Shown in pieces: positions 11,236-28,463 of a stretch of 64,000 nt of DNA. This stretch comes from an uncultured delta proteobacterium. Lineage in GTDB: Bacteria; Desulfobacterota; Binatia; Binatales; Binataceae. Position numbers and translations under genes: made by a program. Position 1 is the first letter of the stretch, and each line of letters begins with the position of its first letter. The stretch spans positions 1 to 64,000 of the forward strand of contig CAWEEQ010000001.1 in the NCBI GenBank assembly GCA_963808235.1, read 5' to 3'. The notes under the pieces are model-generated. The model searched no databases. It was not told where the DNA came from and saw only the letters and a program-made list of their open reading frames with translations.

Positions 11236-11480
11236 TTGAATAGAAACGACTCTCCGTGGACTGTACGGTTCAACTGAGACCGATAGATAGGCCAACTAAG
11301 CAGAAGAGGCTGAGGCTCGAACCGAGAAGACCAGCTACACGCGATGTGAGTATCGTGTCAGCAACCGCAGTTTTTCAACCCATGAAACTGTGGCAAATGA
11401 AGAACCCGCAAACCAGAAGCGTAGAGGTCCGCTGGTTCCAAGGTTTCGACCGAGTAAGTGCAGGTCTCGCGCGGAACCTC

Positions 11481-12881: not shown

Positions 12882-12889
12882 GCGCTCAC

Positions 12890-13783
12890 CTAGGGAATCT
12901 GCTCGCGGATGAACTTGCCGATGCCCTCGATCGCTTGCTGGGCCTCGGGCAGGACGCCGGCGTACGACTGAAAGCGATGAATCATTTCCGGCCAGACTTC
13001 GAGTTTGACCTGAACTCCGGCTGCGCGCGCGCGTTGCGCGAGGCGGGTCGAGTCGTCCAGCAGAACCTCGTGATCGCCAACCTGGATCAGCAGCGGTGGG
13101 AATCCCTTAGGATCGGCATAAAGCGGAGAGGCCAGCGGGGTGCGCGGATTCTTGCCGGCCAGGTAAGCGTTCCCCAGCAGTCCGACGCCGTCGGGCGTGA
13201 AAATCGGATCGACGTCCTTGCGTGTCTTCATCGACTCGCCCGTGAACTCCAAATCGATCATCGGCGAAAGGCAGACCGCCGCCGCAGGCATCGCGAGTCC
13301 GGCGTCGCGGCCCGCAACCAGTATCGCGAGCGTCAATGCGGCGCCTGCAGAATCTCCCGCTATGGCAATGCGCGATGGAGGCAGTCCCTGTGCGAGCAAG
13401 AACCGATAGCCCGCGACGGAGTCGTCCACCGCGGCCGGAAACGGATGCTCGGGTGCAAGGCGATAGTCCAATCCCAGCACGCGGGCCTGCGCGGCGCGCG
13501 AGATGCGGCCCATCAGATTGCGATGGGTATTCAGGGAGCCCATTACATAGCCGCCGCCATGTAAGTAGAGCACGACGCGATCGGCGGCAGCGCCCGGCGC
13601 GTTGATCCATTCCGCCTTGACTCCATTGGCAAGAACGGGCTCGCATTTGATATCGGGTTCCGCCGGCCGCGCCATCTGTTCGTTGAGCGCGCGCATCTCC
13701 GCAATGCTTCCGGCCTTACTGATCAGGGCTTTTATCGTGTCGATTACCTGCTGCAACTGTGGACTCGCCATCGTCAGAAACAC
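12890..13783 (-). CDS. HSL-family alpha/beta hydrolase (esterase)
   Basis: HGGGY, DYRLAPEHPFPA, GDSAG motifs. Confidence 0.92.
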   Translation of the reverse strand: MFLTMASPQLQQVIDTIKALISKAGSIAEMRALNEQMARPAEPDIKCEPVLANGVKAEWINAPGAAADRVVLYLHGGGYVMGSLNTHRNLMGRISRAAQARVLGLDYRLAPEHPFPAAVDDSVAGYRFLLAQGLPPSRIAIAGDSAGAALTLAILVAGRDAGLAMPAAAVCLSPMIDLEFTGESMKTRKDVDPIFTPDGVGLLGNAYLAGKNPRTPLASPLYADPKGFPPLLIQVGDHEVLLDDSTRLAQRARAAGVQVKLEVWPEMIHRFQSYAGVLPEAQQAIEGIGKFIREQIP

Positions 13784-13843
13784 TCCTTAGTGGGTAAAGC
13801 ACGCCGACCAGCGCGCGTTTTTCGAAACTAGCCCGAGTTATCC

Positions 13844-15112
13844 TCAGGCGCAAATATTTTGGCTGGTGCTTGAAAGTTTGACAGCCGTGTCTCGCCCACG
13901 ATCGATCGTCACGTTGAGGATCTCGCTTGAGCGCGCCATCGGCGGATCGCAGTACGGCGCCAACTGATCGAAGAAGCTGTCCGGCTCGATTACCGCCTCG
14001 GGCGCGAACACTCCAGGTGTGGCGAGGCGTCCTTCCAGCAATTGCCGTAACCCGAGCGCCAGCGGCACGCCCGTCGACTTCGCCATTCCTCTCGGAACAG
14101 TGCTGACCGATACGCCGACGCGCGCCGCCTTCCCGTCCTTGGTTCCAGCGGCGAACGCGAAGAACGGAGGCAAATCGCCATGACCTTTGAGGCCCAACGA
14201 CTTTACTACCGCCTTGAGGGTTCGTAGCGCGCCTGGGGCAATCATGATCGCCGCTGCCTGCTCGTTCGTGAGGGTCTTTTGATCCAGCGCCGCGTTGAGA
14301 TCCTTTAGAAGGGAAAGCGCTTGAGTCGTAAGGATCATCAAGCATGCGCTCCGTCCATGAATCCCTAATGTCTCGCACATCGTCAGCGGCTCGGGATGAC
14401 CTACGGTGTAGGCCGTGCCGCGCCCGCGGCCGGGATAATCAATCTCCACCGCATCAAGCGGCGGTCGATTAACGAGTCGTCCGCCCTCGACTACGCGAAT
14501 TACCCCGGAGATCTGCTGCATCAAATGACTGACTGCCGCGCTCGGCTTTCCGTTTTGATCGACCAATGACTCTTTATCTTCGCTAATCGAAACGCCGCCG
14601 ATCGGTACGTCCAACGGCCACGCGGTGTACAGGTCGGTGACTTCGTCGAGCTCGCGCGCAGCCACTTTGGCGAGCAGGTTCGACACGCCTGGGCTCGCTC
14701 CCATGCCAATGACGGCTACAACTCCGGCGTCGGATGCGTTCTGATGCTCGCGCATCATCTCCAGCGTCGGTTCCCAGTCGTCGCAGATATCCAGATAGTG
14801 CGTACGCGCTTCGATCGCTGCACGCAGAATTGGAACTCCGAACTTATGGAATGGCCCGGTTGTGTTGAGCACCGCGCCCGCTTCGCTCAGCAGTCGCCGC
14901 AGCGCAATGCTGTCGGTAACGTCGATCCGTTCGGCGTGTATCCTGACCCTGGCCGACGAGGCCGTTTCCGCGGCGATCTTTTCCGCAGCCGCGAGATCGC
15001 GATCGCCGATGATAACTTCGCGTATGCCATCAAGTGATGCCGCAGTCCGCACCGCGACGCGGCCCATGTTTCCGGCACCGCCCAGCACCACGATTCGTTC
15101 GAGTGGTTTCAT
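13844..15112 (-). CDS. Saccharopine dehydrogenase-like NAD(P)-dependent oxidoreductase
   Basis: VLGGAGNMG Rossmann motif, NTTGPF, YLDICDD, GMGASPG, HPEP. Confidence 0.88.
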   Translation of the reverse strand: MKPLERIVVLGGAGNMGRVAVRTAASLDGIREVIIGDRDLAAAEKIAAETASSARVRIHAERIDVTDSIALRRLLSEAGAVLNTTGPFHKFGVPILRAAIEARTHYLDICDDWEPTLEMMREHQNASDAGVVAVIGMGASPGVSNLLAKVAARELDEVTDLYTAWPLDVPIGGVSISEDKESLVDQNGKPSAAVSHLMQQISGVIRVVEGGRLVNRPPLDAVEIDYPGRGRGTAYTVGHPEPLTMCETLGIHGRSACLMILTTQALSLLKDLNAALDQKTLTNEQAAAIMIAPGALRTLKAVVKSLGLKGHGDLPPFFAFAAGTKDGKAARVGVSVSTVPRGMAKSTGVPLALGLRQLLEGRLATPGVFAPEAVIEPDSFFDQLAPYCDPPMARSSEILNVTIDRGRDTAVKLSSTSQNICA

Positions 15113-15228
15113 AATAGATATCGCAACCCCAAGAGTTGAACAGTAGTCAAGTTTATAGCAAAGCGAGCTCGTTATGACAAGCCCGATCTTGAACATCCGT
15201 CAAGTTTGGATATACTCTTCTCAAACCT

Positions 15229-15915
15229 ATGCCGAAGATTCCGAAGAAAAGCCATGAACGGACGGTACCGTCGGCGGAACGCGCCATTCCTAAGCAGGAG
15301 CGGTCCCGAGGGCGGGTCGCCACGATTCTCGCGGTGACCGCCAGACTCCTTGCCAAATCCGGCTTCGATGCGTTGAATACACGTCAGATTGCGGCCGCCG
15401 CCAAGCTGACCCCAGGCCTCCTCTATCACTACTTTCCGAATAAAGGGGCCATCGTGATGCGACTGGCCGAACAGAATGTTCAGCCGCTGCGCCAAGAACT
15501 CGCGCAAATGCTCAATGAAGCAACGGCGACATCGTGGAGAGAAGCGATCCGTCGGTTGATCGGCAAGCTCACCGCAGCCTACAGGGCAGAGCCGGCCGCA
15601 ACGGCAATCCTGCAGGCGCTGCAGAGCGATCCGGAGCTCAGGCGATTAAACGTGGAGATGAACGATCAGTTCGCTCGAATGATCGCAAAATTCTTGCGCG
15701 CAGCAGGAGCCCGCCTCGATTCGAGAACTCTGCTTCGCGCGGCTCATCTTGTCGTCTTGGTTTGCGACGCCGTAGCTCCTGACCTTGTCGCCGCGAGTCC
15801 CCGGGAGGCTGAGAAACTGTCGGCAGAAATTTCCACGCTGTTGATCGCTTATCTCGGAATGATGTTGCAAGAACCTGCCAGGGGAACGGACGTTCCCGTC
15901 TTTCGGCAACGCTGA
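15229..15915 (+). CDS. TetR/AcrR family regulator
   Basis: PKQERS..., IAAAAKLTPGLLYHYFPNK HTH; divergent from the oxidoreductase-hydrolase-sulfatase operon. Confidence 0.9.
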   Translation: MPKIPKKSHERTVPSAERAIPKQERSRGRVATILAVTARLLAKSGFDALNTRQIAAAAKLTPGLLYHYFPNKGAIVMRLAEQNVQPLRQELAQMLNEATATSWREAIRRLIGKLTAAYRAEPAATAILQALQSDPELRRLNVEMNDQFARMIAKFLRAAGARLDSRTLLRAAHLVVLVCDAVAPDLVAASPREAEKLSAEISTLLIAYLGMMLQEPARGTDVPVFRQR

Positions 15916-15922
15916 TTCCGAG

Positions 15923-16114
15923 ATGAAGGCACGCGCTACCGCTTGCGCACGTTGCGGGAATCCCGGCCAGCCGCGCCAACTAAACGACCTTCTGCGATTC
16001 GATCGGAAAGAGCCTATGGTAGTGCTCTGCGTTGGGTGCATCCGCTCGCTGAGATACGCGGATGCCAAGACGTGGATATGGTTTCGGAGATATCGCGACC
16101 GATTGAAACGGTAA
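15923..16114 (+). CDS. Small CxxC...CxxC protein (putative zinc ribbon)
   Basis: 63 aa, CARC and CVGC. Confidence 0.5.
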   Translation: MKARATACARCGNPGQPRQLNDLLRFDRKEPMVVLCVGCIRSLRYADAKTWIWFRRYRDRLKR

Positions 16115-16170
16115 TTGCAAGAACACGCTGGTGATGGTCGCACGCAGGTCGCATCGTTATCCTTGGCTCA

Positions 16171-16374
16171 GTGAAGACGAGTAAGATCCTCTCCGTTGCG
16201 CCGATCTTCAACAGTGATCCGGCCAGCGTCTATATCGAGCTTTCCTGTTCGCTCTGCGATGAAGTCGATACTCTGGTAGTGAACCAGCCCGAACGAGCGG
16301 GTGACATTTCGTGGCTACGCCGGAATGACTTCTATTTCGTTTGCGGTCGTCACCGCAAATGGGAATCTAACTAA
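16171..16374 (+). CDS. Small CxxC...CxxH protein
   Basis: 67 aa, CSLC and CGRH. Confidence 0.45.
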   Translation: MKTSKILSVAPIFNSDPASVYIELSCSLCDEVDTLVVNQPERAGDISWLRRNDFYFVCGRHRKWESN

Positions 16375-16461
16375 AAAGGCACGCTCGGCTCACCGTCAGT
16401 TGGTGCATGTTTACCGAGCGGGCCACCGGCTCCAGTAGGGGGGAGAGCCCAGAGCCAATTC

Positions 16462-16746
16462 TTATTTGGCGTGATGATCAGTAAGTCTGTTGCGAACTTC
16501 CGTGTCGAAAGCCATCGGTGCGCCCGGACACATCTCTCCCAGCCATTGCGTACTGATGTGATCCGGAAGTCTCCGAAAGCTAAATACTGAGACGTAAACC
16601 GCCCATCGTTCCCCAGACAGGGACTCAACAAAATCACGTCCACAACGGGAGCAGTGATGTTGGCGAAGTGGTTTGTCGGGCTCGATCTCTACCTGGCGGG
16701 GTTTCGGACTAGACCACTCGTGGCTGTTCCATGCGTCGCGGCTCAT
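16462..16746 (-). CDS. Small H...HHCxxC...C protein
   Basis: 94 aa, HEW...HHCSRCG...CPG; AGGA RBS upstream. Confidence 0.55.
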   Translation of the reverse strand: MSRDAWNSHEWSSPKPRQVEIEPDKPLRQHHCSRCGRDFVESLSGERWAVYVSVFSFRRLPDHISTQWLGEMCPGAPMAFDTEVRNRLTDHHAK

Positions 16747-16904
16747 GGGGAAGTAATCCTCCTAGTTGCGGCTTTGGCGACGTGATATACGAGACTTTTA
16801 AATACTGCGGGGGTAATTTTAGGGCAAGAGGAATGACAGAATCACAAATTTGTTCTAGAAAGAAGAAATTAGTCTCCCAATTTTAATCCTTTAGGGGTAT
16901 CGAC

Positions 16905-17141
16905 ATGATACCGGATTTCAAAGGCCATCATTTCGTTGAAGATTCCAAGCCCGGTGAACCGCCGTCCTCGCATCACTGCGACCGATGCGGATTGAAAGCG
17001 TCAATGAGGCGAGACGGCTCGGTATACTTCGACATTGAACGGACTGGCGTATTTCTCAGAACCAGCAACAGCGCGCCCTTCAACACCTCACGCATACCGC
17101 CCTGCAAAGAGTGGTCCGTGGTCCGCCCTCGTCCCGCCTAG
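16905..17141 (+). CDS. Small H...HHCxxC...C protein
   Basis: 78 aa, HHF...HHCDRCG...PPC; AGGGG RBS upstream. Confidence 0.55.
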   Translation: MIPDFKGHHFVEDSKPGEPPSSHHCDRCGLKASMRRDGSVYFDIERTGVFLRTSNSAPFNTSRIPPCKEWSVVRPRPA

Positions 17142-17296
17142 TCAGCACTGGTCCGCGATCCCAGTTTATCCCATGTTAATCCCGCTTCATCCCCGCCTTT
17201 TTGTGCAGGGGAAGACCCTCACGATAGAGTGGCTGATGCCCGATGGGGGGCAAGAGCTCGACGAACTAGATCCAATTTTTATCGTCCACCAGCGAT

Positions 17297-18172
17297 TCAG
17301 GTGTCAGTCCAGCGCGGCAGGTGCGTCGAGAAGGGTGCGCCCGACAGTGCCGCCCGGAGCTCGCTGACGAATTCTCGCGCTGCTTGTCGCCCGTTGGGGA
17401 ATTGGTCGTTTCGATCCCAGCGCCATGCTGCGAGCATCGCAAGCATCAGGACCCGGCATTCGTGGAGCAGTTGTTGATCGGTGCTCCGGTAGAGCACGCT
17501 CACCTCTTCGGGCACGTAGGCGAGATCGAACTCGACGGGCCCGCGGCAACAGGTTTCGAGGTCTATGAACCGCAGGCCCTTCTTCGTCCTGAGCACGTTG
17601 CCCGGGTGTGGCTCGCCGTGCAGGAGTTGTTCGGGGCGCCCGCGGGCGCTGATCGCTTGCCGCAGACTTCGTAACGTGTTGCTGAGAAGCTCACGGTCCG
17701 CGTCAACGAGCTCTGGAGTCTGGTCGCGGCTTCCGATAAGCCGTTGGGCGTCGGTGATTCGATCCGTAAAGTGCGGTGTAGGGAAGTCGATCTGCCGCAT
17801 GCAGTCATGCAGCCGTTCGAGCGCGTGCGCGTAGTCGGCTGGCGCGAACTCTCGGGACGGCACAGGTTCGTAGTAGGTCCACAGCGTGACCACAAAGCCG
17901 TCACGCAAGTAGACGCCCGGCGCGACCCGAGGCTCAAGCGCTGTTACGGGGCTCCCGGTATCCGCGAGCCGTAAAGCAAGCTCGACTTCGAACTCCGCCC
18001 AGCGCTTGATGCGCTCCTCCGCGACCCGAGCAAGAACGTCGCACGGCAGCACGCGCACAGCGAACTTGTTCGACTCCTGGAGCACGATCGCATCATCGAC
18101 TGTTAGGCCAAGCGCTGCCGCAGCGCCCATCGCCGCGGCGACCGCACGGTTACGATTACTCGTCGTCGACAA
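17297..18172 (-). CDS. Aminoglycoside phosphotransferase/kinase-like (APH) family protein
   Basis: LLHGEPHPGNV and FIDLE kinase motifs; RAVAAAM...SNK N-terminus; start uncertain (TTG 18172). Confidence 0.85.
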   Translation of the reverse strand: MSTTSNRNRAVAAAMGAAAALGLTVDDAIVLQESNKFAVRVLPCDVLARVAEERIKRWAEFEVELALRLADTGSPVTALEPRVAPGVYLRDGFVVTLWTYYEPVPSREFAPADYAHALERLHDCMRQIDFPTPHFTDRITDAQRLIGSRDQTPELVDADRELLSNTLRSLRQAISARGRPEQLLHGEPHPGNVLRTKKGLRFIDLETCCRGPVEFDLAYVPEEVSVLYRSTDQQLLHECRVLMLAMLAAWRWDRNDQFPNGRQAAREFVSELRAALSGAPFSTHLPRWTDT

Positions 18173-18178
18173 GGCTTT
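18138..18178. repeat. 41-bp motif, third copy (others at 19101-19141 and 10753-10793)
   Basis: GCGACCGCACGGTTACGATTACTCGTCGTCGACAAGGCTTT; 39/41 identical to the 19101 copy. Confidence 0.9.
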
Positions 18179-18244
18179 TCTGCACGGCTCCGGGGGTCCT
18201 TCTAACCGGGGAGCTTCGCGATGGCAGTTCAAAAGCGGGCGGTG

Positions 18245-19030
18245 TCATGACTTCGGAATTCTGTGAGCGCGCTTGAGCCGTGAGGCGAGGTGGTCCAAAT
18301 CGCCATAGATACTGAATTCGTCGACCCCCAAGAGAATCAGCTCATGTAGTAGAGTGTTTTTTGCGCCCGACGGAATAGTGTATTTCTTCAACGACTTGTT
18401 GTGGGCGGGAGTGAGCTCTTCCCTACCGGGCACGTGAAACGTGAAGCAGCTTCGCTGAAGCACAATTCTCAAGTCCGAGTAGTCGGGCCGTAACGCCATT
18501 ATGAAGTCGGGGAACTGAGACTGGGGTTTGGGTGCCCAAGCACAGATCGCGTTCAAGGCCTTCTGAAACGCTGGATGACGCATCGTTACAACGCCTTGGT
18601 AATGCTTGTCTTTCGTGTTCTGCGTGACTGCGAGCTGATATGCGTCCATGAAAAAGAGAGCACCATCGACCTTTTCGCGTTCCGAGCAGGCGACGAACAA
18701 TGCCGCTAACGGATTGGTCGTCCAATCCAGCAGTCTGGTCGGCAGTCCGTAATGTTGTTCAAGAAAATAGAGCTTGTCGTGCTGGTGGCTTCCTTCGATG
18801 AGGCCAGCCGATTCTACTCGAAAATCCTGAGCCAAGTGGTTTTCGAGTAGAATTCTTTCCCACTCCTCCTTCGCCGGAAAATTTGGCCGATAGACGCCTG
18901 GATGGAGCTCCCAGTCCTTGTTCGCTTGACCGCGCCACCACCATCGGACGTGCGGATGAATATCTCCTTTCTTAATTCCGCGAACGAGTCCGATCAGGTC
19001 GTCGAGACTCTCGATTTTATCTTTGGCCAT
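18245..19030 (-). CDS. FRG domain-containing protein
   Basis: WWRGQ, QHYGLPTRLLDWT.NPLAALFVAC, RIVLQRSCF motifs; more AT-rich than flanks. Confidence 0.9.
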   Translation of the reverse strand: MAKDKIESLDDLIGLVRGIKKGDIHPHVRWWWRGQANKDWELHPGVYRPNFPAKEEWERILLENHLAQDFRVESAGLIEGSHQHDKLYFLEQHYGLPTRLLDWTTNPLAALFVACSEREKVDGALFFMDAYQLAVTQNTKDKHYQGVVTMRHPAFQKALNAICAWAPKPQSQFPDFIMALRPDYSDLRIVLQRSCFTFHVPGREELTPAHNKSLKKYTIPSGAKNTLLHELILLGVDEFSIYGDLDHLASRLKRAHRIPKS

Positions 19031-19100
19031 TTGTCGTCCCGTTGCGCTTACCTGAGGAACGTGCCGTCTGCAGCCCGCACTGCTTTAGCCGCGCGGGCGA

Positions 19101-19550
19101 GCGACCGCACGGTTACGGTTACTCGTCATCGACAAGGCTTTGAGGGTGAGAGAGGATCGCCAGAAATAGAAATACGTCCGGATTTTTGTTCGAGCCGAGC
19201 GCCGCCGTTCCTCGGCACGGGATTTTTCAATGCGCTGTCACTCAATTAACTACTTTTGATTGCGGATCGTGGTCAAGCGGCGCGCGACGCACCTCACGCC
19301 GACAGTAAGCCCATCAATTTATGTACGTCAAAGCGACCGCCTGCGGCCCCTGCCGAAGGGCCTCTGATATAGATGGCCACCGCGCGCGCCCGGAGCTTGC
19401 GAACTGGCCTAATAGGCCTTTAGGACCAATCGGATACCCTTCAAATAACCTCAAAACCGACACATAAAGTTACACACTTTCACATGTTGGAATATGGAAA
19501 ACCAATAATTTCGCATGATTAGAATCAAACTTAAGGGACTTAAAATCCTC
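19101..19550. repeat. Copy B of ~440-bp non-coding direct repeat ending in GGGACTTAAAATCCTC (tRNA-Leu anticodon arm)
   Basis: Aligns with 10753-11193; similarity drops right after the anticodon arm. Confidence 0.92.
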
Positions 19551-19566
19551 TGGAGTGCGCTTCTCG

Positions 19567-19602
19567 GCTTCAATGTGGCCGCGCTCACGTGAGCTCGGAA
19601 AC
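19567..19602 (-). CRISPR. Solitary type I-G (I-U)-like CRISPR repeat (no array, no cas genes in window)
   Basis: Minus strand reads GTTTCCGAGCTCACGTGAGCGCGGCCACATTGAAGC: 36 nt, GTTTC start, central palindrome, ATTGAAGC end. Confidence 0.7.
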
Positions 19603-19807
19603 GTACGCCTCGAGGGCGACAGCGAGCGCGAGAGACCCGCGAGCGATGAAGGTGCAACAAGCGGCTAGCATCGAGCGAGCGCGCCCGACGATAGTTCCTC
19701 CGATTGTCGCCCTTGACATGAATTACATAATTTCATAATTATTTCTTTACAGACATGTAGGCACACGTTGCTCAACAGGCGACGTTTTTTGCAGTCCGGG
19801 ATTTCCG

Positions 19808-20122
19808 ATGAAGAAAACATTTCAGGGTCCAACTTTCACTCTGCTGATCGTCAGCATGATCACCGCCCTCTTCCTGCAGGGCAGCCCGTGCTTTGCTGCG
19901 ACTAGTGCCGGCGCACTGCCATGGGACCAGACGCTGACCGCCTTGCGAGACATCATCGCCGGCCCTGTGGCTCACGCCGCGATCGTCCTGAACTTTGCCT
20001 GCTCGGCAATCCTGTACGCGCTGGGTAGCCGTCAATTCGCGGGTCGCCTATTGGTTGGCGGGTTTGCGAGTTGTGCGGCGCTCATCGCTGTGCGCTCCCT
20101 GACTTACCTCTTTCCATTCTGA
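19808..20122 (+). CDS. TrbC/VirB2-family pilin
   Basis: Long signal peptide then ALPWDQTL..L...IAGPVA and two hydrophobic helices. Confidence 0.75.
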   Translation: MKKTFQGPTFTLLIVSMITALFLQGSPCFAATSAGALPWDQTLTALRDIIAGPVAHAAIVLNFACSAILYALGSRQFAGRLLVGGFASCAALIAVRSLTYLFPF

Positions 20123-20157
20123 CGAATCATTTCAGAAGCCAATTTGTGGAGGCCACT

Positions 20158-20433
20158 ATGAAACTCGCACGCATCAGCAAGCCCCTTCGCTCCGTTCAGG
20201 TCCGCGTCATGCTCGCTGGCGACCTGAATGCAACCCTCGAACGTTACGCGCAATATTACGAGCACGTTCACGGCGAGTCGGTGGATACTCGATCGCTCAT
20301 CGCCGAGATCCTCCGCGCCTTCCTCGATGCCGACCGTGAGTTCCAGTCATGGTCGCGCTCAGGTGGCAACAATCAGCCGTCGCGCATCTCATCTCCGTCT
20401 TCATCCAACGGCAGCACCAAGGTCCAACCGTGA
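20158..20433 (+). CDS. DUF2274-like protein
   Basis: MKL...L..DL...LERYA.YY...HG....LI.EILRAFL.ADREF pattern; GGAGG RBS. Confidence 0.7.
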   Translation: MKLARISKPLRSVQVRVMLAGDLNATLERYAQYYEHVHGESVDTRSLIAEILRAFLDADREFQSWSRSGGNNQPSRISSPSSSNGSTKVQP

Positions 20434-20453
20434 CTTGCATCAATGGAAAGTCC

Positions 20454-20660
20454 GGCTGACGTGCTTCGCACGTGTTTACAACTGACACGTCACTCATCCC
20501 TCTGGATGAAGGATGTGTACCAGAGCGTACACGGCCCATCGGAGAGTGGCGTGACCGCGGGCGCATTTCCGTACACGCAAGCGTGTACGGCGCGCCGACC
20601 CGTGCGAAGCACGTCAGCCTAGGCCCCCGGATTCATTGAAGTATACGGCGTGTACGCCCT
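20454..20660. promoter_or_regulatory. Candidate oriT
   Basis: Perfect 19-bp inverted repeat 20454-20472/20601-20619 enclosing a 10-bp hairpin 20569-20590 and repeated GTACAC/GTGTAC sites, directly upstream of RHH-T4CP-relaxase. Confidence 0.65.
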
Positions 20661-20666
20661 GAAAGA

Positions 20667-21020
20667 ATGAAGAGCAGTCCGATGCCGGAGATTCCATACA
20701 CCGTCCGCCTGGCGCCGAAGCTGTTGGAGCGGATTGAGAAGACCGCGCGGGACAGAGGAATTGCGCCGCGCAAATTGATTCGCGCAGTGCTCGCCGAGCA
20801 CTTCGCCGGAGATCGCGGCGCTCAGCAGGACGGGTTGGCCAGCCTGTCGAACCCGCAACGCGGCCTCGATCAGATTCTGTTCGATCTAACCCGCACCCGG
20901 CTCACGCTCCAGCATCTGCTCGATCACCAGGTCGGCTCCGAGGTGACCGACCAGATCCGCCAGACTGCGCAACAAGAAGCCGAGCAGTACATGCACCGGC
21001 TCAGGAGAAGAGCGATATGA
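20667..21020 (+). CDS. Ribbon-helix-helix relaxosome accessory protein (TrwA-like position)
   Basis: YTVRL..KLLERIE..AR.RGI...KLIR..L pattern; ATGA overlap with T4CP. Confidence 0.7.
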   Translation: MKSSPMPEIPYTVRLAPKLLERIEKTARDRGIAPRKLIRAVLAEHFAGDRGAQQDGLASLSNPQRGLDQILFDLTRTRLTLQHLLDHQVGSEVTDQIRQTAQQEAEQYMHRLRRRAI

Positions 21021-22839
21021 ATCTGTCTCGAACTGCCATCCGATACGAATTGAGTTCCGGTTCAGCCGCGGTGCTGCTGCGCCTCTACCTTCGAGTCCAG
21101 CTGCTCTGGATTCTGACCTGGACGGCTTCCGATCTTTTCTTCGTCTGGTACTGGAGCGGCCGCCTCTCGGGACCCGGCGCCCACGAATACTTCGGGCGCT
21201 GGATTCTCGCCTGGTTCTTCACCCAGAAGGTCCCGCTCTATTTTCTGTCGCTCCCGTACAAAGGCGGTCGCGCGACGATCGGAAGTATGTACGCTTACCT
21301 CAACTGGCGTTTCTATCAGGGGCGCTCGTTCGGACAGTGGTTCGCCTCATACAGTGTCTGGGGCGCGGTACCGGCATGCCTGACCCTCGTCGCCGGGTAC
21401 TTCATTCTCGGCGATCCCGAGGACCGTCCCGAGGGGAAGCATCTTCGAGGCCTCACGTCTGATCCCGCCGCGCCAGCTGTCACGCGAACTTCGCCGCGCC
21501 GGATTGCGGAGCGACCGGGCGGGAGTCGAGCTTGCTCGGGTGCGCATTCCGCGCTCGACCGAGTGCGAGCATTTCCTCATCACTGGCGCGACGGGAGCGG
21601 GAAAGTCGATGGCGATCCGCTCGCTGCTCCGCCAGATCCAGGCTCGCGGCGACCTTGCCATCGTGGTCGATCCCGAGTGCGAATACGTCTCCGAATTTTA
21701 TCGTCCGGCGCGCGGAGACCTGATCCTGAACCCGGTCGATGAGCGCTGTCCGTACTGGTCGCCGTGGCTGGAATTGAGCGAGCGGTACTACCAGGCGGAC
21801 GCGGCGACGCTCGCGGCTTCTCTGATTCCCGAACCTCCGCGCGGCTACGAAAGCGGGTCGGATCACTTCTTCCGGCAATCCAGCCGGACTCTGCTCGAAA
21901 GCCTGCTTCAGAGTCGCCGCACCGCGAGAGCCGCAGAGCATTCCGAAGCTGCTCGAACTCAATCGCGATCAGTTGAAGCAGGCGCTGTCCGGCACGCCGG
22001 CATACAGCCTGATCGATCCCGGCGCGCACGAGCAGGGCGCCGGGATCATCGCGACCGTCGCCAACGCGACCCGACCATTCCTCTATCTGCCGCCCGCCGA
22101 CGGACGACCGCCGTGGAGCGCGCTGGAATGGTCCGAGCATCCCGAAGGATGGCTGTTCGTGACGATGCGCGACGAGTCCAACTCGGCGGCGCTGCCACTC
22201 GCGAACCTCTGGCTCGACCTCATTGTCGGCCGCCTGCTCAACTCCGCCCGCCATCGGCGAAGGGTCTGGATCGTGGTGGACGAGCTGCCGGTGCTCGGCC
22301 GTCAGGCGAAGCTCGAGACGCTGGTAACTCGCGGACGCAAGCGTGGACTCGCCGCCGTGCTGGGGTTCCAGAGCATCGCTCAATTGCGCCGGATCTATGG
22401 CCACGAGCAGGCAGCAGTGCTCGCGTCGATGCCTTCGACCAAGCTCCTACTGCGGGTGGACGAGCCCGAGACGGCAGCGTTCATCGCGCGGCAGATCGGC
22501 GATCGCGAGGCGTTGCGTGAGGAGATCGGGATAAGCACCGCCGAGCACGGCAATCGGTTCAACATCCATCCTGCGCGCCGGACCGAGCCGGTCGTGATGG
22601 CGTCCGAGATCCAGCGGCTGCCGAAGCTGGAAGGCTATCTCTGCATCGCCGGACTCGATCGTGCGCGCGTCAAAGTGAGGCCGTGCGTTCCGCACCGGCG
22701 GCAGGTCGAGTTCATTCCGCGCGCTCTTCCGAGGCCGGTCATCAATGAGCCCAGCGCCGATTTGGCGGCGCTGACGATCAGTCGCGGGCCGATTCCGCCG
22801 AACGGGACCGCGGGCGCTCCGGTGAGGATTCAGGACTAA
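21017..22839 (+). CDS. Type IV coupling protein (TraD/TrwB-like), frameshifts ~21460 and ~21915
   Basis: N-terminal TM helices, HFLITGATGAGKS, WSPW.E, VDELP, GRKRG...GFQS, VMASEI..LP. Confidence 0.88.
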
Positions 22840-25572
22840 TGCTGGTAATGTCCAAAGGCGCGCTCACCGCCGCCCAGGCCGAGACCTACTACGAAGAGAA
22901 GTACTCGCACGACGACTATTACTCCGAGAAGCAGCGGGTCGTAGGACAATGGTTCGGCCGTGGCGCTGAGGAGTCTGGGACTGTCCGGCGAGATTGCGAC
23001 CGAAGACTTCCGCGCCGTGCTGCGCGGGCTTCGCCCTGCCTCCGGCGAGGTGCTTGTTCACAAGGCGAACGGCTACGACGACCGGCGCGCCGGCTGGGAC
23101 GCTACCTTCAACGCGCCGAAGTCGGTGAGCATTCAGGGGCTGGTCGGAGACGATCACCGCCTTATCGAAGCGCACGAAAAGGCAGTCAGTCGCGCGCTGG
23201 TGGAACTCGAACAATATGCGCTCTCGCGGCGCCGCGGGGGCAGCGAATGGGTCGTGACCGGCAATATCGTCGCCGCGCGTTTCGATCATATCGCGGCTCG
23301 TCCCGCCAGCGGCGTTGAAGACGGCTACGGTCCCGACCCTCACCTCCACACGCACGTCGTCATCGCCAACATGACCCGGCGGCCCGATGGAGAGTGGCGC
23401 GGCCTCGATCCGATCGAGATCTATCGCGCGCAGAGCCTTCGCCACCGCAGTTTACCGCTCTGAACTGGCCCGAGAGGTTCAACAGCTCGGATACGAAATC
23501 AGGATCGGCGGTCGAGACGGACGATGGGAGCTGGACGGCTACACGCGCGAGCAGGTGATGGCGTTCTCCCGTCGTCGCCAGGACATCGAACGGACGCTTG
23601 CGCGTGAAGGGCTGGCGGGCGCCGAGGCGGCGCAGAACATCGCGCATCGAACGAGGCTCTCTAAGGATCATCGCGACGAAGAGAGTCTCAAGGCGGAATG
23701 GCGCTCGCGCGCGCAGACAATATGGTATCGGAGTCGAGCGCCAAATCTCGCACTCGCGCGAGCGTGGGCCGCTCCAACTTCGACCTCCGGAAAAAGCCGA
23801 GGAAGCCGTCCGCCACAGCATCGAGGAAAACACCGAGCGCGAGGCGGTCATCGACCGCCGCGCCCTTGAAGCGAAGGCGCTGCAGCATGCGATGGGAGCC
23901 GTCGACCTCGAACAGATACGGACGGAGAGCAAGCGGTTCGAGAGAAGCGGCCTTTTGATCGCGGTCGGCGACGCCGTGATTTCGCCGCGAGGCGCTTACA
24001 CGACGCCGGAGATGATCGCCCTTGAACGCGGGAACATCGGACTGATGCATGCGGGCCAGGGCGGGGCCGCCGCTATCGGCAGTTTGAACGAGATTCGCCG
24101 ATGGGCGAGCCAGCGCAACTTGCTTCCTGATCAGACTGCCGTCGCCGAACTCACGCTGGCGTCCACCGACTGGATCACCTCAATCGAAGGCCGCGCCGGC
24201 GCTGCGAAGACCACGACGGTCGGCGCGATATGCGAATTCGCGGTAAACCAGGGCTATGCTGTCTACGGGTTCGCGCCAACGACGCGTGCGGTCAAGTCGC
24301 TTTCGGAAGCAGGTGTTTCTGCCAGTACAGTCGCCAGCCTCCTCGAAAGGCAATCAGCACGCGACGCCTCAAGCGAAGTCTGGATCATCGACGAGTCGAG
24401 CCTGCTCCCCACGCGCCAGGTTAACCGGCTTCTCCGCAAGGCTCGCGAGCAAAGCGTAGAGCGGATCGTCTTTGTGGGCGACCAAGCGCCAGCATCATGC
24501 GATCGAAGCGGGACGGCCCGTCTATCAGATGCAGGAGGCCGGAATGCTGGTCGCCCGGCTCGATACCATTCGCCGCCAGCGCGATCCTGAGCTCCGCGAA
24601 GCGGTGACGCTCGCCGCCAGAGGCGAAGTCGCGGAGTCGCTCGCGATTCTTGACCGCCGCGGCGACATCCGGGAAGTCTGCGACATCGAACAGCGCCGTA
24701 AACAGATTGCGCGCGAGTACGTTGCTGCCCATCAATCCGGGGAGCGAGTTCTGGTCGTCAGCCCTGCAAACGAGGAGCGGCGAGAACTGAACGGAGCGAT
24801 CCGCGCCGAGATGATCGAACGCGGTCACGTTAGTCCGATCGAGCAAGAACATACGATTCTGGTTAGCCGAAATCTCTCGGGCGCACAGCGCGCGATCGCT
24901 TACAACTATGAAGAAGGCGACGTGATTCGCTTCACGCGCGGAAGCAAACAGTTCGCGATCGCCAAAGGCGCCTATGCGCATGTCGAAAAGCTCGATCGCG
25001 ACGCGAACATGCTCACGGTGAACACGGGCGACGGGCGGCGCATCGAGTACAATCCGGTCCGGCTGTTCGGTGTCGAAGTCTTTCGCGAGGAACCTCGAGT
25101 CCTCGCACAAGGCGACCGAATACAGTTCCGCACACCCGACCGGGCACTTGGCGTTGCCAATGGCGATTTCGCCACAATCAAATCCATCGACGCTCGCCGC
25201 GCCCTTTTGCGCTTGGACAATTGCAAGGAGTTGAGCGCCGCGCTCGATCGTCTCAACCACATCGACCACGGCTACGCTTCGACTTCGCACTCCGCGCAAG
25301 GCGCAACCGTCGATCGCGTGATCGTCGATATCGATACGCGCCTGTCGCCTGAGCTCGTAAATCGCAAGCAGTTTTACGTGTCGATCAGCCGCGCGCGAAA
25401 CGCGCTCGCAATTTATACCAACGACCGCGCTCAGCTCCCTCGCACCGCGAGTAGGAGCCGCGAGAAATCAATGGCCATTCAGCATTCGACTCCAGCGCCC
25501 CGACATAGCTTCACCATCTTGCCTGACGGCAATCGCCAGAGTTTCAGTCGCGGTCACGGAATTCGACGATGA
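22839..25572 (+). CDS. MOBF (TrwC/TraI-like) relaxase-helicase, split by ~4 frameshifts
   Basis: YY...DDYY N-terminus, DATFNAPKSVS, DPHLHTH, FSRRR; helicase motifs GRAGAAKTT, IIDESS, HGYASTSHSAQG, FYVSISRAR. Confidence 0.92.
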
Positions 25573-25629
25573 ATCAAAGGGGTTTGTGTCGCTCGCAAAC
25601 TACAGTTCGTTGTCGGTCGGGTCTGCGCC

Positions 25630-26643
25630 CTAGGTTGTGAAAACTTTGTGACCGAAGAGATCTCGGCTCAGCCTTTCGAGTGAGAACTGGTTCCGCTCTC
25701 GGATGCTCTCTTCAACGATTCGCATCAAGGCAGACGCTGTGAGAAGATCCACGCTCCTAATCGGCGAATCTGCCAAGTATTCCGTTAGCTTTTTCAGGTC
25801 CCCATCTTTGAACGATGGGCCAACAACAACAAAGTAGAGCTTATCAAAACCCTGGCGCTGCAGGTCGGCCCCTCGGTCTCGGGCGTATTCCAAGAATTTT
25901 CGATCCTCGGTGCCCAATATATAACCTCCGGACCGGACCTTGGCGTCCACGATCACGGCAAATCGATCGCGAGGTGCGAGCGCGACAAAGTCGGGCTTTC
26001 GTCCGGTACCTTGACCGAATGGCGAAATCTCGAATCCAAGACAGCGAAATGCATCAGCCGTTCGTCGTTCAAAAAGTGTGCTCAGACTCAAATCGCTTGT
26101 CTCGAACGGAACTTGCTCGCCTCGCGCTAGTACGTCCAAGTACTGAAGGCACTGCGGCAGAAATGGATGAAAGCCCGGCGCCGGAGTCGTCCCTCTGCTC
26201 GGCCTGCTCTGATGGTCACGGTTTGCGAGGCGCCACCAATCGTAGTCTAGGATCTGTTGTAGTTCCGGCTCTGTAGTTCGAAGCCATTGTCGAAAATGGA
26301 CATCGAACTCCCTCTCTCCGCCGAATCTCTTCTTGACCGTGCTGGTCTTAGCTCCAAGTTCTCTCTGTGCGATAAGAAGCTCGCCGCGCGTGGGTATCTT
26401 GCCGAGATGCAGGCAGATTCGAGCATATTCCCGAAACACAGTTTCATCTGGCAGTCGATTGTCAAACTTGTTTGCCGTCGCGCCGGCTTCTTTAGCAAGA
26501 GCGCTCCTTGTGGGCCAATAGTAAGACACCTCGCTTTCTTTGACCCCCGTCATCTTGCAAAACACCGCCATTCCAGGCGTCCGGCCGAGCTTTCTCTGGC
26601 AGGCGCGAAAAAGGTCTAAGATTTCCTCCCGGCTTTGCCGCAT
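25630..26643 (-). CDS. Helical-repeat (homing-endonuclease-associated repeat-like) protein fused to a FokI-like PD-(D/E)xK cleavage domain
   Basis: Two N-terminal ~60-aa repeats (KLGRTP, HLGKIPT..E); C-terminal FE...LGF...G..RKPD...VIVDAK..SGGY.L. Confidence 0.7.
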   Translation of the reverse strand: MRQSREEILDLFRACQRKLGRTPGMAVFCKMTGVKESEVSYYWPTRSALAKEAGATANKFDNRLPDETVFREYARICLHLGKIPTRGELLIAQRELGAKTSTVKKRFGGEREFDVHFRQWLRTTEPELQQILDYDWWRLANRDHQSRPSRGTTPAPGFHPFLPQCLQYLDVLARGEQVPFETSDLSLSTLFERRTADAFRCLGFEISPFGQGTGRKPDFVALAPRDRFAVIVDAKVRSGGYILGTEDRKFLEYARDRGADLQRQGFDKLYFVVVGPSFKDGDLKKLTEYLADSPIRSVDLLTASALMRIVEESIRERNQFSLERLSRDLFGHKVFTT

Positions 26644-27088
26644 GCGGAGCAGGATGCCATCGCACCGCCTGCCCAACAAGCCCGTCTCAGCACCTCATCG
26701 GATTTCCGCTCTGCGGATAGGTGCGGACCGGCTTTGAGTGCCTTCTATCGGTGGCGCTTGCTTCACTGGCACGCCGTGCCACCGGCTTCCGCCGGACGCT
26801 TAGCTTGTCACGCCGTGCAGCGTTCCGCTTCGCGCGTCTCGGAATCTTGCACGCGCCCTCAGGTTCGGGTGAAGGGCGCGCGCCTTCAAAATGGTGCGGA
26901 ACCCGAAGAACAGAATCGCGTCCTGCCCCTGCGGAGAAGCGGACGCAATCACACCTGCGTGGTTGGTCTGTCATTGTGGATTTCTGTAATTCTGAGATTG
27001 TGGCTTTCGATGAATTTTCTTCCAGATTCCGATAATCTTTAGCGGCAGGAGGCGGCGAGCGGCGGGTTGCTGACGCTGATAAACTTGA

Positions 27089-27418
27089 ATGAAGAGTTTC
27101 GGTCAAGTGCTTAGGGAGGCTCGGAAAAAGGCCGGGCTTACACAGAGAGAGCTTGCCGCGCGCTTGAAGCGCGAAGACGGGCGTCCAGTGGACCCTCCGT
27201 ATCTCAATGCGGTCGAGCACGATCACCGCTATCCGCCCGAGGACTACCTGATCCAGCAGATGTCGAAGATTGTCGGCATCTCGCCGGATGTGCTGTACTT
27301 TCACGCGAACCGCCAGCCGCCGGACGTGAAGACCGAGGCGGACCAGGAACGACTCGAAGCCGCTTATCGTGCGTTCCGCAAGGCGCTGGGAGTAAAACCG
27401 GCCGGCAAGCGAAAATGA
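27089..27418 (+). CDS. XRE/Cro-type HTH repressor (ImmR-like)
   Basis: FGQVLREARKKAGLTQRELA...YLNAVE. Confidence 0.88.
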   Translation: MKSFGQVLREARKKAGLTQRELAARLKREDGRPVDPPYLNAVEHDHRYPPEDYLIQQMSKIVGISPDVLYFHANRQPPDVKTEADQERLEAAYRAFRKALGVKPAGKRK

Positions 27419-28086: not shown

Positions 28087-28112
28087 ATTCGGGGCGTGCG
28101 TAGCAGAATTAT

Positions 28113-28440: not shown

Positions 28441-28463
28441 AGATTGTGCAGGGAGCTAACGCG

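What the first reader, a model, noticed from the sequence alone, without database searches (positions are those of the whole stretch)
19535..19770. Solitary type I-G-like CRISPR repeat whose downstream 'spacer' runs into a tRNA-Leu att core
Seen: one 36-nt unit, GTTTCCGAGCTCACGTGAGCGCGGCCACATTGAAGC (minus strand, 19602-19567). I found no second copy and no cas gene in 64 kb. An AT-rich stretch (~19715-19755) lies upstream. Downstream the sequence reads CGAGAAGCGCACTCCA-GAGGATTTTAAGTCCC; the second block is the complement of a tRNA-Leu(TAA) anticodon arm and the end of the 440-bp module. Known: length, central hairpin and ATTGAAGC end fit type I-G (I-U) repeats; solitary repeat units on mobile elements can act as RNA anti-CRISPRs (Racr); CASTs use isolated repeat + tRNA-matching spacers for homing. 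Inference, three options: (a) a Racr carried at the edge of the mobilizable element; (b) a crRNA-like guide pointing host Cascade at the tRNA-Leu att site of competing elements; (c) an array cut when a tRNA-Leu-specific element integrated into an attP-derived spacer.
Basis: partly seen in the sequence, partly recalled or inferred. Interest (0 to 1): 0.85.

Follow-up and report, generated by a model that had tools for sequence, protein, structure and literature searches.

The report
Relic CRISPR array split by islands
The lone repeat is one half of a worn-out two-repeat type I-G CRISPR array carried on a mobile island; its single spacer copies the tRNA-Leu gene, and other mobile islands that normally insert into that gene have inserted into the spacer instead.

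Summary
The 36-mer at 19567-19602 (-) is real and is a genuine type I-G CRISPR repeat. Relatives hold 31-82-copy arrays of it, or of versions 1-5 bases off; where I held the flanks (G036, G044) they adjoin Cas3g-Cas8g2-Csb1-Csb2-Cas4g/Cas1g. It is solitary only within the window. A second copy (2 mismatches) lies at C2:185905-185940. Both sit on one tRNA-Val island (att repeats at C2:183675-183722 and window 29647-29694; integrase 28167-29639). In G044 this island carries a complete I-G system at exactly this position; in G051 an I-G array sits beside the same AbiE arm.

Between the two repeats there was one spacer. Its 39 tRNA-like bases match tRNA-Leu(UAA) alleles of three genus members 39/39, with a TTT PAM. 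That spacer acted as a pseudo-attB. tRNA-Leu-specific islands sit inside it: about 77 kb in tandem in G000 and 12.5 kb in G039, with a 20-bp core repeated at both junctions.

G000 has no type I-G cas genes and no Cas1, the locus has no leader, and each repeat carries one mutation. It is a relic, not a Racr or a homing guide.

The parts
19567..19602 (-). Repeat R: the repeat on the cas/leader side of a two-repeat relic type I-G CRISPR array. It differs by 1 base (C8 to A, inside the stem) from the repeat of the G051 array.
19558..19566 (-). Nine bases between R and the tRNA-like part of the spacer (CGCTTCTCG on the plus strand). They are not tRNA-like and their origin is unexplained. On the crRNA strand they contain GAAGC, which is also the last five bases of the repeat.
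19536..19557 (-). The R-side part of the tRNA-Leu-like spacer, 22 nt identical to tRNA-Leu(taa) positions 29-50. Its first 20 nt (19536-19555) are the core that is repeated at the other junction (C2:185958-185977).
19101..19535 (+). The 440-bp module, which is the P arm of the last tRNA-Leu-specific island. It is 87% identical to the copy at 10753-11201. Its last 240 nt are 75% identical to the P arm at C4:2263972-2264200, 16 kb from the genuine tRNA-Leu gene.
11236..19100 (.). Body of the last island in the tandem. It carries sulfatase, alpha/beta hydrolase, saccharopine-dehydrogenase-like, TetR, APH-like and FRG-domain ORFs. No integrase was found.
10753..11235 (+). The module copy plus a tRNA-Leu 3' fragment (11180-11235). 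This is the junction between two tandem islands (P arm, core, P' arm).
1..10752 (.). Part of the preceding island of the tandem. It runs off the contig start towards the end of C2 (inferred).
19603..19627 (-). 25 bases between R and the point where homology to the G044 island begins. They may be the tail of a truncated spacer left by the deletion that removed the cas genes, the leader and most of the array (inferred).
19628..29649 (.). The right arm of the tRNA-Val island. It holds TrbC/VirB2-like pilin 19808-20122 (+), DUF2274 20158-20433 (+), a coupling-protein fragment 21973-22839, TrwC-type relaxase/helicase fragments 22839-25572, and a tyrosine integrase 28167-29639 (+). It is 86-89% identical to G044 C1:2032740-2041713.
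29650..29727 (-). The tRNA-Val(cac) gene. Its 3' end plus three flanking bases (29647-29694, 48 nt) are repeated 100% at C2:183675-183722, the other end of the island.
19713..19742 (+). A promoter-like site (TTGACA, 18 nt, AATTAT) pointing at the pilin gene. It is not a CRISPR leader.
19585..19719 (-). A 44-aa ORF whose stop codon lies in the repeat hairpin. It is probably not a gene: it has no Pfam family, and G044 has a 1-nt deletion inside it.

Best explanation
The repeat is the cas/leader-side half of a relic, orphan type I-G CRISPR mini-array (R, one spacer, R') carried by an integrative element lodged in tRNA-Val. In related genomes the same element carries, at the same place and in the same orientation, a full I-G cas operon, leader and long array. 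In the G000/G039/G027 lineage only the last two repeats and one spacer remain. That spacer is a copy of the tRNA-Leu(UAA) gene (positions 12-50) and includes the whole anticodon stem-loop. Inferred step: because tRNA-Leu-specific integrative islands cross over in that stem-loop, their integrase, supplied in cis or in trans, treated the spacer as a substitute attB and inserted islands into it, splitting the array. R now adjoins the island P arm (the 440-bp module). R' adjoins the island P' arm, a tRNA-Leu 3' half, about 77 kb away on contig C2. In this host the array does nothing as CRISPR immunity: there are no cas genes, no leader and no promoter-like site on its strand, and each repeat carries one mutation. 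Its only present effect is as a landing pad that nests tRNA-Leu islands inside a tRNA-Val island. Shown: the repeat's identity, the second copy, the synteny, the junction sequences and the tRNA match. Inferred: integrase-mediated insertion, the order of events, and loss of the cas genes after a self-targeting acquisition.
For: (1) Repeat family. 8 of 165 family genomes, G000 included, match the 36-mer at up to 3 mismatches. G051 has 32 copies, G036 48, G047 31 and G048 32; G000 and G039 have 2 each. G044 has 82 copies of a variant that differs in the hairpin loop. The arrays in G036 and G044 adjoin Cas3g, Cas8g2, Csb1, Csb2 and Cas4g/Cas1g, all above NCBIfam cut-offs.
(2) One island. The 48-nt tRNA-Val att repeat is 100% identical at C2:183675-183722 and window 29647-29694, with the integrase beside it. 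The C2 tail and the C1 head carry successive parts of one EmrB-like gene on the same strand. G039 has both repeats 12.5 kb apart on one contig.
(3) Synteny. In G044 the order is right arm (86-89% identical), cas operon, 82-repeat array, 1.9 kb, AbiE arm (80% identical), with the repeats in the same orientation. In G051 the array's far end is followed by the same AbiE arm.
(4) Junctions. R' is followed at once by tRNA-Leu from position 12 (70 of 77 identical). The module ends in tRNA positions 29-50, then 9 nt, then R. A 20-nt core is shared by both junctions. G039 has the same two half-sites but a different P' arm and different cargo.
(5) P arms related to the module precede tRNA-Leu fragments, including one 16 kb from the genuine gene. 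All five tRNA-Leu fragments on C2 and C1 are on the plus strand.
(6) Spacer origin. The 37-mer next to R' is exact in 22 other genomes of the family, 21 of them among the 46 other genus genomes, and in all 22 it lies inside a full tRNA-Leu gene. 3 of those 22 continue with TG, giving 39/39, followed by AAA, which is a TTT PAM. I-G uses a TTN PAM (passage in PMC9638904). 39 nt is a normal spacer length: 26 of 191 related spacers have it.
(7) Orphan state. No I-G cas genes were found by tblastn in G000. Csb2 is present in 2 of 47 genus genomes, not in G000 or G039. Cas1 is absent from G000, G039 and G027.
(8) The junction is not an assembly artefact. Contigs from public runs of three studies bridge module, core, 9 nt, R and the right arm with 0-1 differences.
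Against: No uninterrupted R'-spacer-R site was found anywhere. The genome-contig scan returned only G039's own contig. Two metagenome scans, one viral scan and one plasmid search returned nothing. The distance between the repeats before insertion would be 48 nt, and only 2 of 191 related spacers are 45 nt or longer; the extra 9 nt next to R are unexplained. No tyrosine integrase lies next to any tRNA-Leu fragment. The only PF00589 hit inside the tandem is C2:195222-195821, 9 kb from the left junction, and the islands next to the genuine tRNA-Leu gene have none. The recombinase is therefore unidentified. Contiguity of the C2 end and the C1 start is inferred, not sequenced. All the genomes involved are metagenome assemblies. 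One or two of the runs that confirm the junction may be the source samples. The order of events (self-targeting acquisition, cas loss, island insertion) cannot be read from the present data.
Confidence: 0.8

Rival explanations
1. RNA anti-CRISPR (Racr-like solitary repeat unit). The island keeps one or two repeats so that, on entering a host with a type I-G system, the repeat RNA soaks up Csb2/Cascade subunits and blunts immunity.
For: The repeat is within 1 base of functional arrays in the same family and sits on a mobile island. Hosts with cognate I-G systems exist in the genus: Csb2 is present in 2 of 47 genomes. The R' hairpin is intact at -17.3 kcal/mol.
Against: Neither of the 2 promoter-like sites found in 19400-19900 is on the repeat's strand. 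R has a stem mismatch (-11.6 against -17.3 kcal/mol). The same slot in G044 holds a whole cas operon plus array, and G051 has its array beside the same AbiE arm, so a remnant is the simpler reading. G027 has deleted part of R. G000 and G039 are 97-99% identical here, so retention says nothing about selection. No expression data were obtained.
Confidence: 0.05
2. A working guide. The mini-array encodes a crRNA that directs a type I-G effector, in trans, to tRNA-Leu att sites, either to attack competing islands or for CAST-like homing.
For: The spacer matches the tRNA-Leu anticodon region that competing islands use as their att site. A TTT PAM stands beside the 39/39 protospacer in 3 of the 22 genomes examined.
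Against: The spacer is physically split, by about 77 kb in G000 and 12.5 kb in G039. No type I-G cas genes were found in G000 and no Cas1 or Csb2 in G000 or G039. None of the 20 window ORFs scanned matched a Pfam family whose name (as printed in the tables) marks a Tn7 transposition gene. The islands' attP shares only about 20-22 nt with the spacer. Nine unmatched bases sit at the PAM-proximal (seed) end.
Confidence: 0.03
3. Not a spacer. A truncated tRNA-Leu gene copy and its islands came to lie between two leftover repeats through unrelated deletions or rearrangements, and the fit to a repeat-spacer-repeat unit is a coincidence.
For: A 48-nt spacing is atypical: 2 of 191 related spacers are 45 nt or longer. 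The 9 nt next to R are unexplained. No empty site was found.
Against: The tRNA match starts exactly at the boundary of R' and spans 39 nt, a normal spacer length, with a TTN PAM in the source alleles. Both junctions share a 20-nt core, as integrase products would. Two genomes have the same half-sites with different inserts.
Confidence: 0.07

Closest known systems
Type I-G (formerly I-U) CRISPR arrays, as characterised for the Thioalkalivibrio sulfidiphilus effector (PMC9638904; passages read)
   Same: A 36-nt repeat with a GC-rich hairpin, 4 nt after the stem and an 8-nt 5' handle. Near-identical repeats sit next to Cas3g, Cas8g2, Csb1, Csb2 and Cas4g/Cas1g in relatives. There is a TTN-type PAM beside the spacer's source.
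   Different: Here only two mutated repeats and one spacer remain. There are no cas genes and no leader, and the unit is split by inserted islands.
Degenerate or orphan CRISPR loci with self-targeting spacers (Stern et al. 2010; recalled, and seen only as an entry in the reference list of PMC8371274)
   Same: A spacer that copies a chromosomal gene, here an essential tRNA. The associated cas genes are missing and the repeats are decaying.
   Different: The self-derived spacer has gone on to serve as a recombination target for integrative elements. I did not find this described.
tRNA-gene-targeting integrative islands with tandem accretion, and integration at the anticodon-loop sublocation (Williams 2002; recalled, and seen only as a reference-list entry)
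   Same: The core direct repeat lies in the anticodon stem-loop. The P' arm rebuilds the tRNA 3' half. Several islands lie in tandem, each ending in a P arm plus a tRNA fragment.
   Different: The target is not a tRNA gene but a 39-nt copy of one inside a CRISPR array on another mobile element. No integrase gene is seen next to the att sites.
CRISPR-Cas systems carried on genomic islands (for example Vibrio; PMC6360697, listing and start of abstract only)
   Same: A complete CRISPR-Cas locus is cargo of a tRNA-integrated island in G044; G051 shares the array and the AbiE arm.
   Different: In the window only the stump of that cargo is left.
Racr solitary repeat units and CAST homing spacers (Racr recalled from memory; CAST papers seen as listings only)
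   Same: Isolated CRISPR repeats on mobile elements, and a spacer that matches a tRNA-linked att site.
   Different: No promoter-like site on the repeat's strand, no effector and no hit to a Tn7-type Pfam family among the 20 ORFs scanned. The repeat is one of a pair, and the pair is explained by synteny with a full locus.

Membership tests
Type I-G CRISPR repeat / array | A 36-nt repeat with a hairpin, 4 nt after the stem and an 8-nt 5' handle | tested here: met
   Folding gives 4 nt, an 8-bp stem with a 4-nt loop, CCAC, then AUUGAAGC. This matches the description in PMC9638904. R has one stem mismatch.
Type I-G CRISPR repeat / array | The same repeat forms arrays next to I-G cas genes | tested here: met
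   Met in relatives only. G036 and G044 have arrays beside Cas3g, Cas8g2, Csb1, Csb2 and Cas4g/Cas1g. The G051 array's repeat is 1 base from R.
Type I-G CRISPR repeat / array | Two or more repeats separated by a spacer of typical length in this genome | tested here: inconclusive
   There are two repeats. The spacing before insertion is inferred to be 48 nt, against a usual 34-44 nt (186 of 191 spacers). The tRNA-like part alone is 39 nt.
Type I-G CRISPR repeat / array | Cognate cas genes in the host | tested here: not met
   tblastn with six I-G proteins gave no hit at E 1e-3. There was no Csb2 and no Cas1. G000 is 93% complete.
Type I-G CRISPR repeat / array | A leader upstream of the first repeat | tested here: not met
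   The leaders of G051, G036 and G088 align with each other but not with window 19603-19900. No promoter-like site lies on the minus strand.
Racr (RNA anti-CRISPR solitary repeat unit) | Its own promoter driving the repeat | tested here: not met
   The consensus scan of 19400-19900 found 2 promoter-like sites, both on the plus strand. A consensus scan is weak evidence.
Racr (RNA anti-CRISPR solitary repeat unit) | An expressed repeat RNA that inhibits the cognate Cas complex | not testable with these tools
CAST-type homing guide | Tn7-like transposition genes and a nuclease-deficient effector on the same element | tested here: not met
   None of the 20 ORFs between 7087 and 26679 matched a Pfam family whose name, as printed in the tables, marks a Tn7 transposition gene. 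No I-G cas genes were found in the genome. Only these ORFs were scanned.
attL/attR of a tRNA-targeting integrative element | A direct repeat of the core at both junctions | tested here: met
   The 20-nt core GGACTTAAAATCCTCTGGAG is at C2:185958-185977 and window 19536-19555. The same half-sites occur in G039.
attL/attR of a tRNA-targeting integrative element | The element's arm rebuilds the tRNA 3' half, and the other arm is shared with elements at the genuine tRNA gene | tested here: met
   The left junction matches the tRNA at 70 of 77 positions through to the acceptor end. The module is 75% identical over 240 nt to the P arm 16 kb from the genuine tRNA-Leu gene.
attL/attR of a tRNA-targeting integrative element | A cognate integrase gene in the element | tested here: not met
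   PF00589 gave 6 hits in the genome and none is adjacent to a tRNA-Leu fragment. The one hit inside the tandem is C2:195222-195821.
attL/attR of a tRNA-targeting integrative element | An empty target site or an excised circle has been observed | tested here: not met
   No uninterrupted site turned up in the collection scans. These scans need exact matches, so a variant site would be missed.

The most novel reading that the evidence does not exclude
A CRISPR spacer can become an attachment site. When an array captures a piece of a tRNA gene (or of an att region) that an integrase recognises, the integrase can insert its island into that spacer. This destroys the spacer and nests the island inside whatever carries the array, here a mobilisable tRNA-Val island, so tRNA-Leu islands could travel with it without touching the host tRNA gene. 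If this is recurrent rather than a one-off, it would be an insertional route by which integrative elements escape CRISPR. It would also be a source of 'solitary' repeats that could be mistaken for Racr units.
Probability: 0.15. Interest if true: 0.75.

Novelty: new variant of a known kind. Interest (0 to 1): 0.5.

Why it matters
The finding turns an apparent solitary repeat into a documented history. An island-borne type I-G system acquired a spacer from the host genus's own tRNA-Leu gene. It then lost its cas genes, and the leftover spacer was used as a substitute attB by tRNA-Leu-specific islands, at least 77 kb of them in this genome.

I found no description of site-specific integration into a CRISPR spacer. 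Two full-text searches listed nothing of the kind among the 15 titles each returned.

Practical consequences:
- Solitary repeats on mobile elements should be checked for a distant partner before being called RNA anti-CRISPRs.
- Self-derived spacers can create ectopic integration sites and nested mobile elements.
- The system offers a natural pair of att substrates (tRNA gene versus spacer copy) for defining the minimal attB of this integrase family.

Tried and rejected
Searches for an empty site or the spacer's source. The exact scan of genome contigs with 29 nt of the R-side spacer part returned only G039's own contig. Two exact scans of metagenome contigs, one across the R-spacer junction and one across the R'-tRNA junction, returned 0 stretches each. 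The viral-contig scan returned 0. blastn of window 19536-19602 against plasmids returned no match. All scans except the plasmid blastn need exact matches, so variants would be missed.

Reads. Read laying with four DNA runs (Logan contigs) on G039's 14-kb stretch showed no contig joining R'-spacer-R across the 12.5-kb insert. Contigs drop rare variants and break at repeats, so this says nothing about absence. One joint, 678 to 13299 in run X11 (1 contig, depth 3, 22 letters on the shorter side, 17 other letters between), may be a variant island in which a repeat abuts the right arm at another point. It is too weak to use. 'Goes back' joints (13196 to 723 in X1; 13125 to 692 in X11) are module-core-P' junctions, the X1 one with yet another variable arm. 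They could be tandem junctions or circles and do not bear on the empty site.

Leader. The 300 nt upstream of R do not align with the conserved leaders of G051, G036 and G088.

The 58 nt upstream of R were compared with the 191 harvested spacers and gave only 8-12-nt chance matches.

The 191 spacers were compared with the G000 genome and gave only 17-26-nt matches at E 0.001-0.006. None fell in the tRNA-Leu gene or fragments, or in the part of C2 and C1 occupied by the islands.

Integrase hunt. Seven ORFs to the right of tRNA-Leu fragments on C2 are not recombinases. ORF lists for the islands beside the genuine tRNA-Leu gene and for G039's insert show no obvious integrase by size or N-terminal text; they were not scanned with Pfam. 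The genome-wide PF00589 search gave 6 hits, none next to a tRNA-Leu fragment.

The 44-aa ORF at 19585-19719 has no Pfam family and carries a 1-nt deletion in G044. I rejected it as a gene.

The 'order' search covered the same 165 genomes as the 'family' search and added nothing.

The idea that the 9 extra bases are untrimmed protospacer flank was rejected by eye, not by a call: the flank in the tRNA alleles printed (reverse complement) is unlike them. The idea that they arose by a microhomology (GAAGC) deletion that fused a neighbouring spacer's first bases to this one could not be tested.

Supplementary files of papers were not consulted (closed). They might hold I-G repeat, PAM or spacer-length tables relevant to the 48-nt question.

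The tally of 40 of 165 genomes includes the unpublished genome G162 (one weak hit). No other statement rests on it.
Full report
OBSERVATION. The 36-mer stands at window 19567-19602 on the minus strand. It is unique in the window at up to 3 mismatches, and 0 of 100 shuffles gave a match. Rfam gives a full-length but sub-threshold match to CRISPR-DR16 (17.4 bits against a gathering score of 35). Upstream on the plus strand lies a 440-bp module, duplicated at 10753-11201 and 19101-19558. The module ends in 22 nt (19536-19557) that are identical to positions 29-50 of the genome's intact tRNA-Leu(taa) gene at C4 c[2280372-2280459]. Nine further bases (19558-19566) separate this from the repeat.

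THE REPEAT IS A REAL TYPE I-G REPEAT. I searched 165 genomes of the same family at up to 3 mismatches, and 8 matched, G000 included. G051 has 32 copies, 1 base off. G036 has 48, G047 has 31 and G048 has 32 copies, each 3 bases off. G088 and G119 have 2 each; G088's two stand after a leader and a degenerate repeat, and G119's are at a contig end. G000 and G039 have exactly 2 each. In G036 the array follows Cas3g, Cas8g2, Csb1/Cas7g, Csb2, Cas2 and Cas4g/Cas1g, all above NCBIfam cut-offs. G044 has the same operon and 82 copies of a variant that differs only in the hairpin loop, which the 3-mismatch search had missed. The fold is 4 nt, an 8-bp stem with a 4-nt loop, CCAC, then AUUGAAGC. This fits the published I-G repeat, in which Csb2 cuts 4 nt 3' of the hairpin base and leaves an 8-nt handle (passages of PMC9638904).

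IT IS NOT SOLITARY IN THE GENOME. The window is C1:1-64000 of a four-contig assembly. A second copy (R', 2 mismatches, ending AAGT) lies at C2:185905-185940 in the same orientation relative to the tRNA-like core. R carries a C-to-A change that breaks one stem pair (-11.6 against -17.3 kcal/mol). R' carries a change in the last handle base. Each is 1 base from the G051 repeat. G039, of the same genus, has the same two variants 12.5 kb apart on one 1.57-Mb contig.

ONE tRNA-Val ISLAND CARRIES BOTH. tRNA-Val(cac) is at 29650-29727 (-), with a tyrosine integrase (28167-29639) beside its 3' end. Forty-eight bases covering the 3' end of the tRNA-Val gene and three flanking bases (window 29647-29694) recur, 100% identical, at C2:183675-183722. 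So the island runs from there, through the end of C2 and the start of C1, to 29694. In support, the C2 tail and the C1 head hold the C-terminal and middle parts of one EmrB-like gene on the same strand. This contiguity is inferred, not sequenced. The island's left arm holds an AbiEii/AbiEi pair and a small zinc-ribbon ORF. Its right arm holds a TrbC-like pilin, DUF2274, a CopG-like ORF, a coupling-protein fragment and TrwC-type relaxase/helicase fragments. It therefore looks like a decayed mobilisable or conjugative element.

RELATIVES SHOW WHAT USED TO BE THERE. In G044 (same genus) the order on one contig is as follows:
- chromosomal flank;
- tRNA-Val/integrase region (89% identical to window 26749-29773);
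- right arm (86% identical to window 19628-25428);
- about 200 nt later, Cas3g through Cas4g/Cas1g, the leader and 82 repeats;
- 1.9 kb;
- the AbiE arm (80% identical to C2:183673-185463).

In G051 (another genus) the far end of the array is followed by the same 1.9 kb and the same AbiE arm. The repeat orientation relative to the two arms is the same as in G000. Homology of the right arm to G044 stops at window 19628, which leaves 25 unique bases before R. The upstream region of G000 does not align with the conserved leaders of G051, G036 and G088. The only promoter-like sites in 19400-19900 point the other way, at the pilin gene. I read R, spacer and R' as the stump left after the cas genes, the leader and most of an array were lost.

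G000 has no I-G cas genes by tblastn. Csb2 occurs in 2 of 47 genus genomes, G036 and G044. Cas1 is absent from G000, G039 and G027. Completeness is 93%, 97% and 78% respectively.

THE SPACER AND THE ISLANDS INSIDE IT. R' is followed at once by tRNA-Leu from position 12 to the acceptor end (70 of 77 identical to the host gene), with no 5' acceptor strand. On the other side, the module ends in tRNA positions 29-50, then 9 nt, then R. The two junctions share a 20-nt core (GGACTTAAAATCCTCTGGAG). This is what recombination between attP (module, core, tRNA 3' half) and a target (R', tRNA 12-28, core, TG plus 9 nt, R) would give.

G039 has the same two half-sites, but a different P' arm (a different variable arm) and mostly different cargo. 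That places the crossover within the anticodon loop. G027 has the module-R junction with a secondary 182-bp deletion.

In G000 the tRNA-Leu fragments at C2 185960, 229720 and 239745 and at C1 11181 and 19538 all lie on the plus strand. I read this as four or five islands in tandem, at least 77 kb in all. The module's last 240 nt are 75% identical to the P arm that precedes a tRNA-Leu fragment 16 kb from the genuine gene, and related P arms precede two more fragments. These are therefore one family of tRNA-Leu-specific elements.

Public-run contigs from three studies bridge module, core, 9 nt, R and the right arm with 0-1 differences: X4 record 23, X8 record 31 and X1 record 8. One or two of these runs may be source samples.

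WHERE THE SPACER CAME FROM. The 37 nt next to R' are found exactly in 22 other genomes of the family, 21 of them among the 46 other genomes of this genus. The 22 include G036 and G044, which have I-G systems. In all 22 the 37-mer sits inside a full tRNA-Leu gene, preceded by the acceptor and D-stem start. In 3 of the 22 (G002, G040, G042) the next two bases are TG, as on the R side. This gives a 39/39 match, followed by AAA, which is a TTT PAM on the protospacer strand. I-G uses a TTN PAM (passage in PMC9638904), and the PAM end is inserted at the repeat-proximal 5' end of the spacer (passages of PMC10504553). Thirty-nine nt is a common length: 26 of 191 spacers harvested from the parts of related arrays that I held. 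G000's own gene differs at one D-loop base (38/39).

I conclude that an I-G system in this genus acquired a spacer from a tRNA-Leu(UAA) gene. Such a spacer would be self-targeting. Loss of the cas genes as an escape from autoimmunity is a reasonable inference, but it is untested.

LOOSE ENDS.
- The spacing between the repeats would be 48 nt, and only 2 of 191 related spacers are 45 nt or longer (one of 50 nt; one of 83 nt that hides a degenerate repeat).
- The extra 9 bases next to R match nothing I searched. They contain the repeat's last five bases. They may come from a microhomology deletion that fused the start of a neighbouring spacer to this one. They would also put mismatches in the seed.
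- No integrase lies beside any tRNA-Leu fragment, so the enzyme must act in trans or has been lost.
- No empty site was found (see Tried and rejected).

COMPARISON AND VERDICT. The object works like nothing active. It is a relic I-G array whose spacer has become a secondary attachment site. It meets the sequence and structure criteria of an I-G repeat. It fails the criteria for a functional array in this host (no cas genes, no leader). It meets three of five att-junction criteria. The Racr and CAST-guide readings fail the features that could be tested.

Orphan arrays, self-targeting spacers, island-borne CRISPR-Cas and tandem tRNA islands are all known. Their combination, site-specific insertion of tRNA-specific islands into a tRNA-derived spacer, did not appear among the 15 titles listed by each of two full-text searches. 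I rate it a new variant of a known kind, of moderate interest.

Noticed in passing
window 10753-11201 and 19101-19558; also C4:2263972-2264200, C4 near 2254771, C2 near 239745: A conserved AT-rich P arm of about 240-440 bp precedes five of the six tRNA-Leu fragments aligned. It carries shared motifs (ACACATAAAGTTACAC, TTTCACAT, AAACCAAT) that could be arm-type integrase sites. The islands it bounds carry metabolic cargo and no integrase.
   Followed up: partly
window 21973-25572: The transfer genes of the tRNA-Val island are in pieces: a coupling protein of 288 aa that matches only the C-terminal part of TrwB, and TrwC-type relaxase/helicase pieces in three overlapping ORFs. This suggests a decayed element, or frameshift errors in the assembly.
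   Followed up: no
window 1-800 and the last 150 nt of C2: Pieces of an EmrB-like transporter gene lie on the minus strand at both contig ends. There is a frame change within the window part and about 200 codons are missing between the contigs.
   Followed up: partly
C2:186120-186170 (locus L002/L038): A second tRNA-like 3' fragment (T-arm and acceptor-like, ending CTCCACA) lies about 100 nt after the tRNA-Leu fragment next to R'. ARAGORN calls no gene there. It may be the att scar of another element.
   Followed up: no
window 42939-43053: Two copies of a 49-nt unit, 94% alike and 66 nt apart.
   Followed up: no
L008 (G088:C49:1-2685), repeats at 1150-1185 and 1223-1258: A stump of an I-G array with a conserved leader, a degenerate first repeat and only two good repeats, followed by unrelated sequence. 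This is another truncated array in the family.
   Followed up: no
L056 positions 678 and 13299, run X11: One low-depth contig joins a repeat end to the island's right arm 55 nt beyond R, with 17 other letters between. It may be an independent deletion variant of the same island. The evidence is weak: 22 letters on the shorter side.
   Followed up: no
loci L057-L078 (tRNA-Leu genes of 22 family genomes): 17 of the 22 tRNA-Leu(UAA) genes are followed by something other than CCA. Their variable arms fall into five versions and their T-arms into two. This would fit frequent replacement of the 3' half by integrated islands across the genus.
   Followed up: partly
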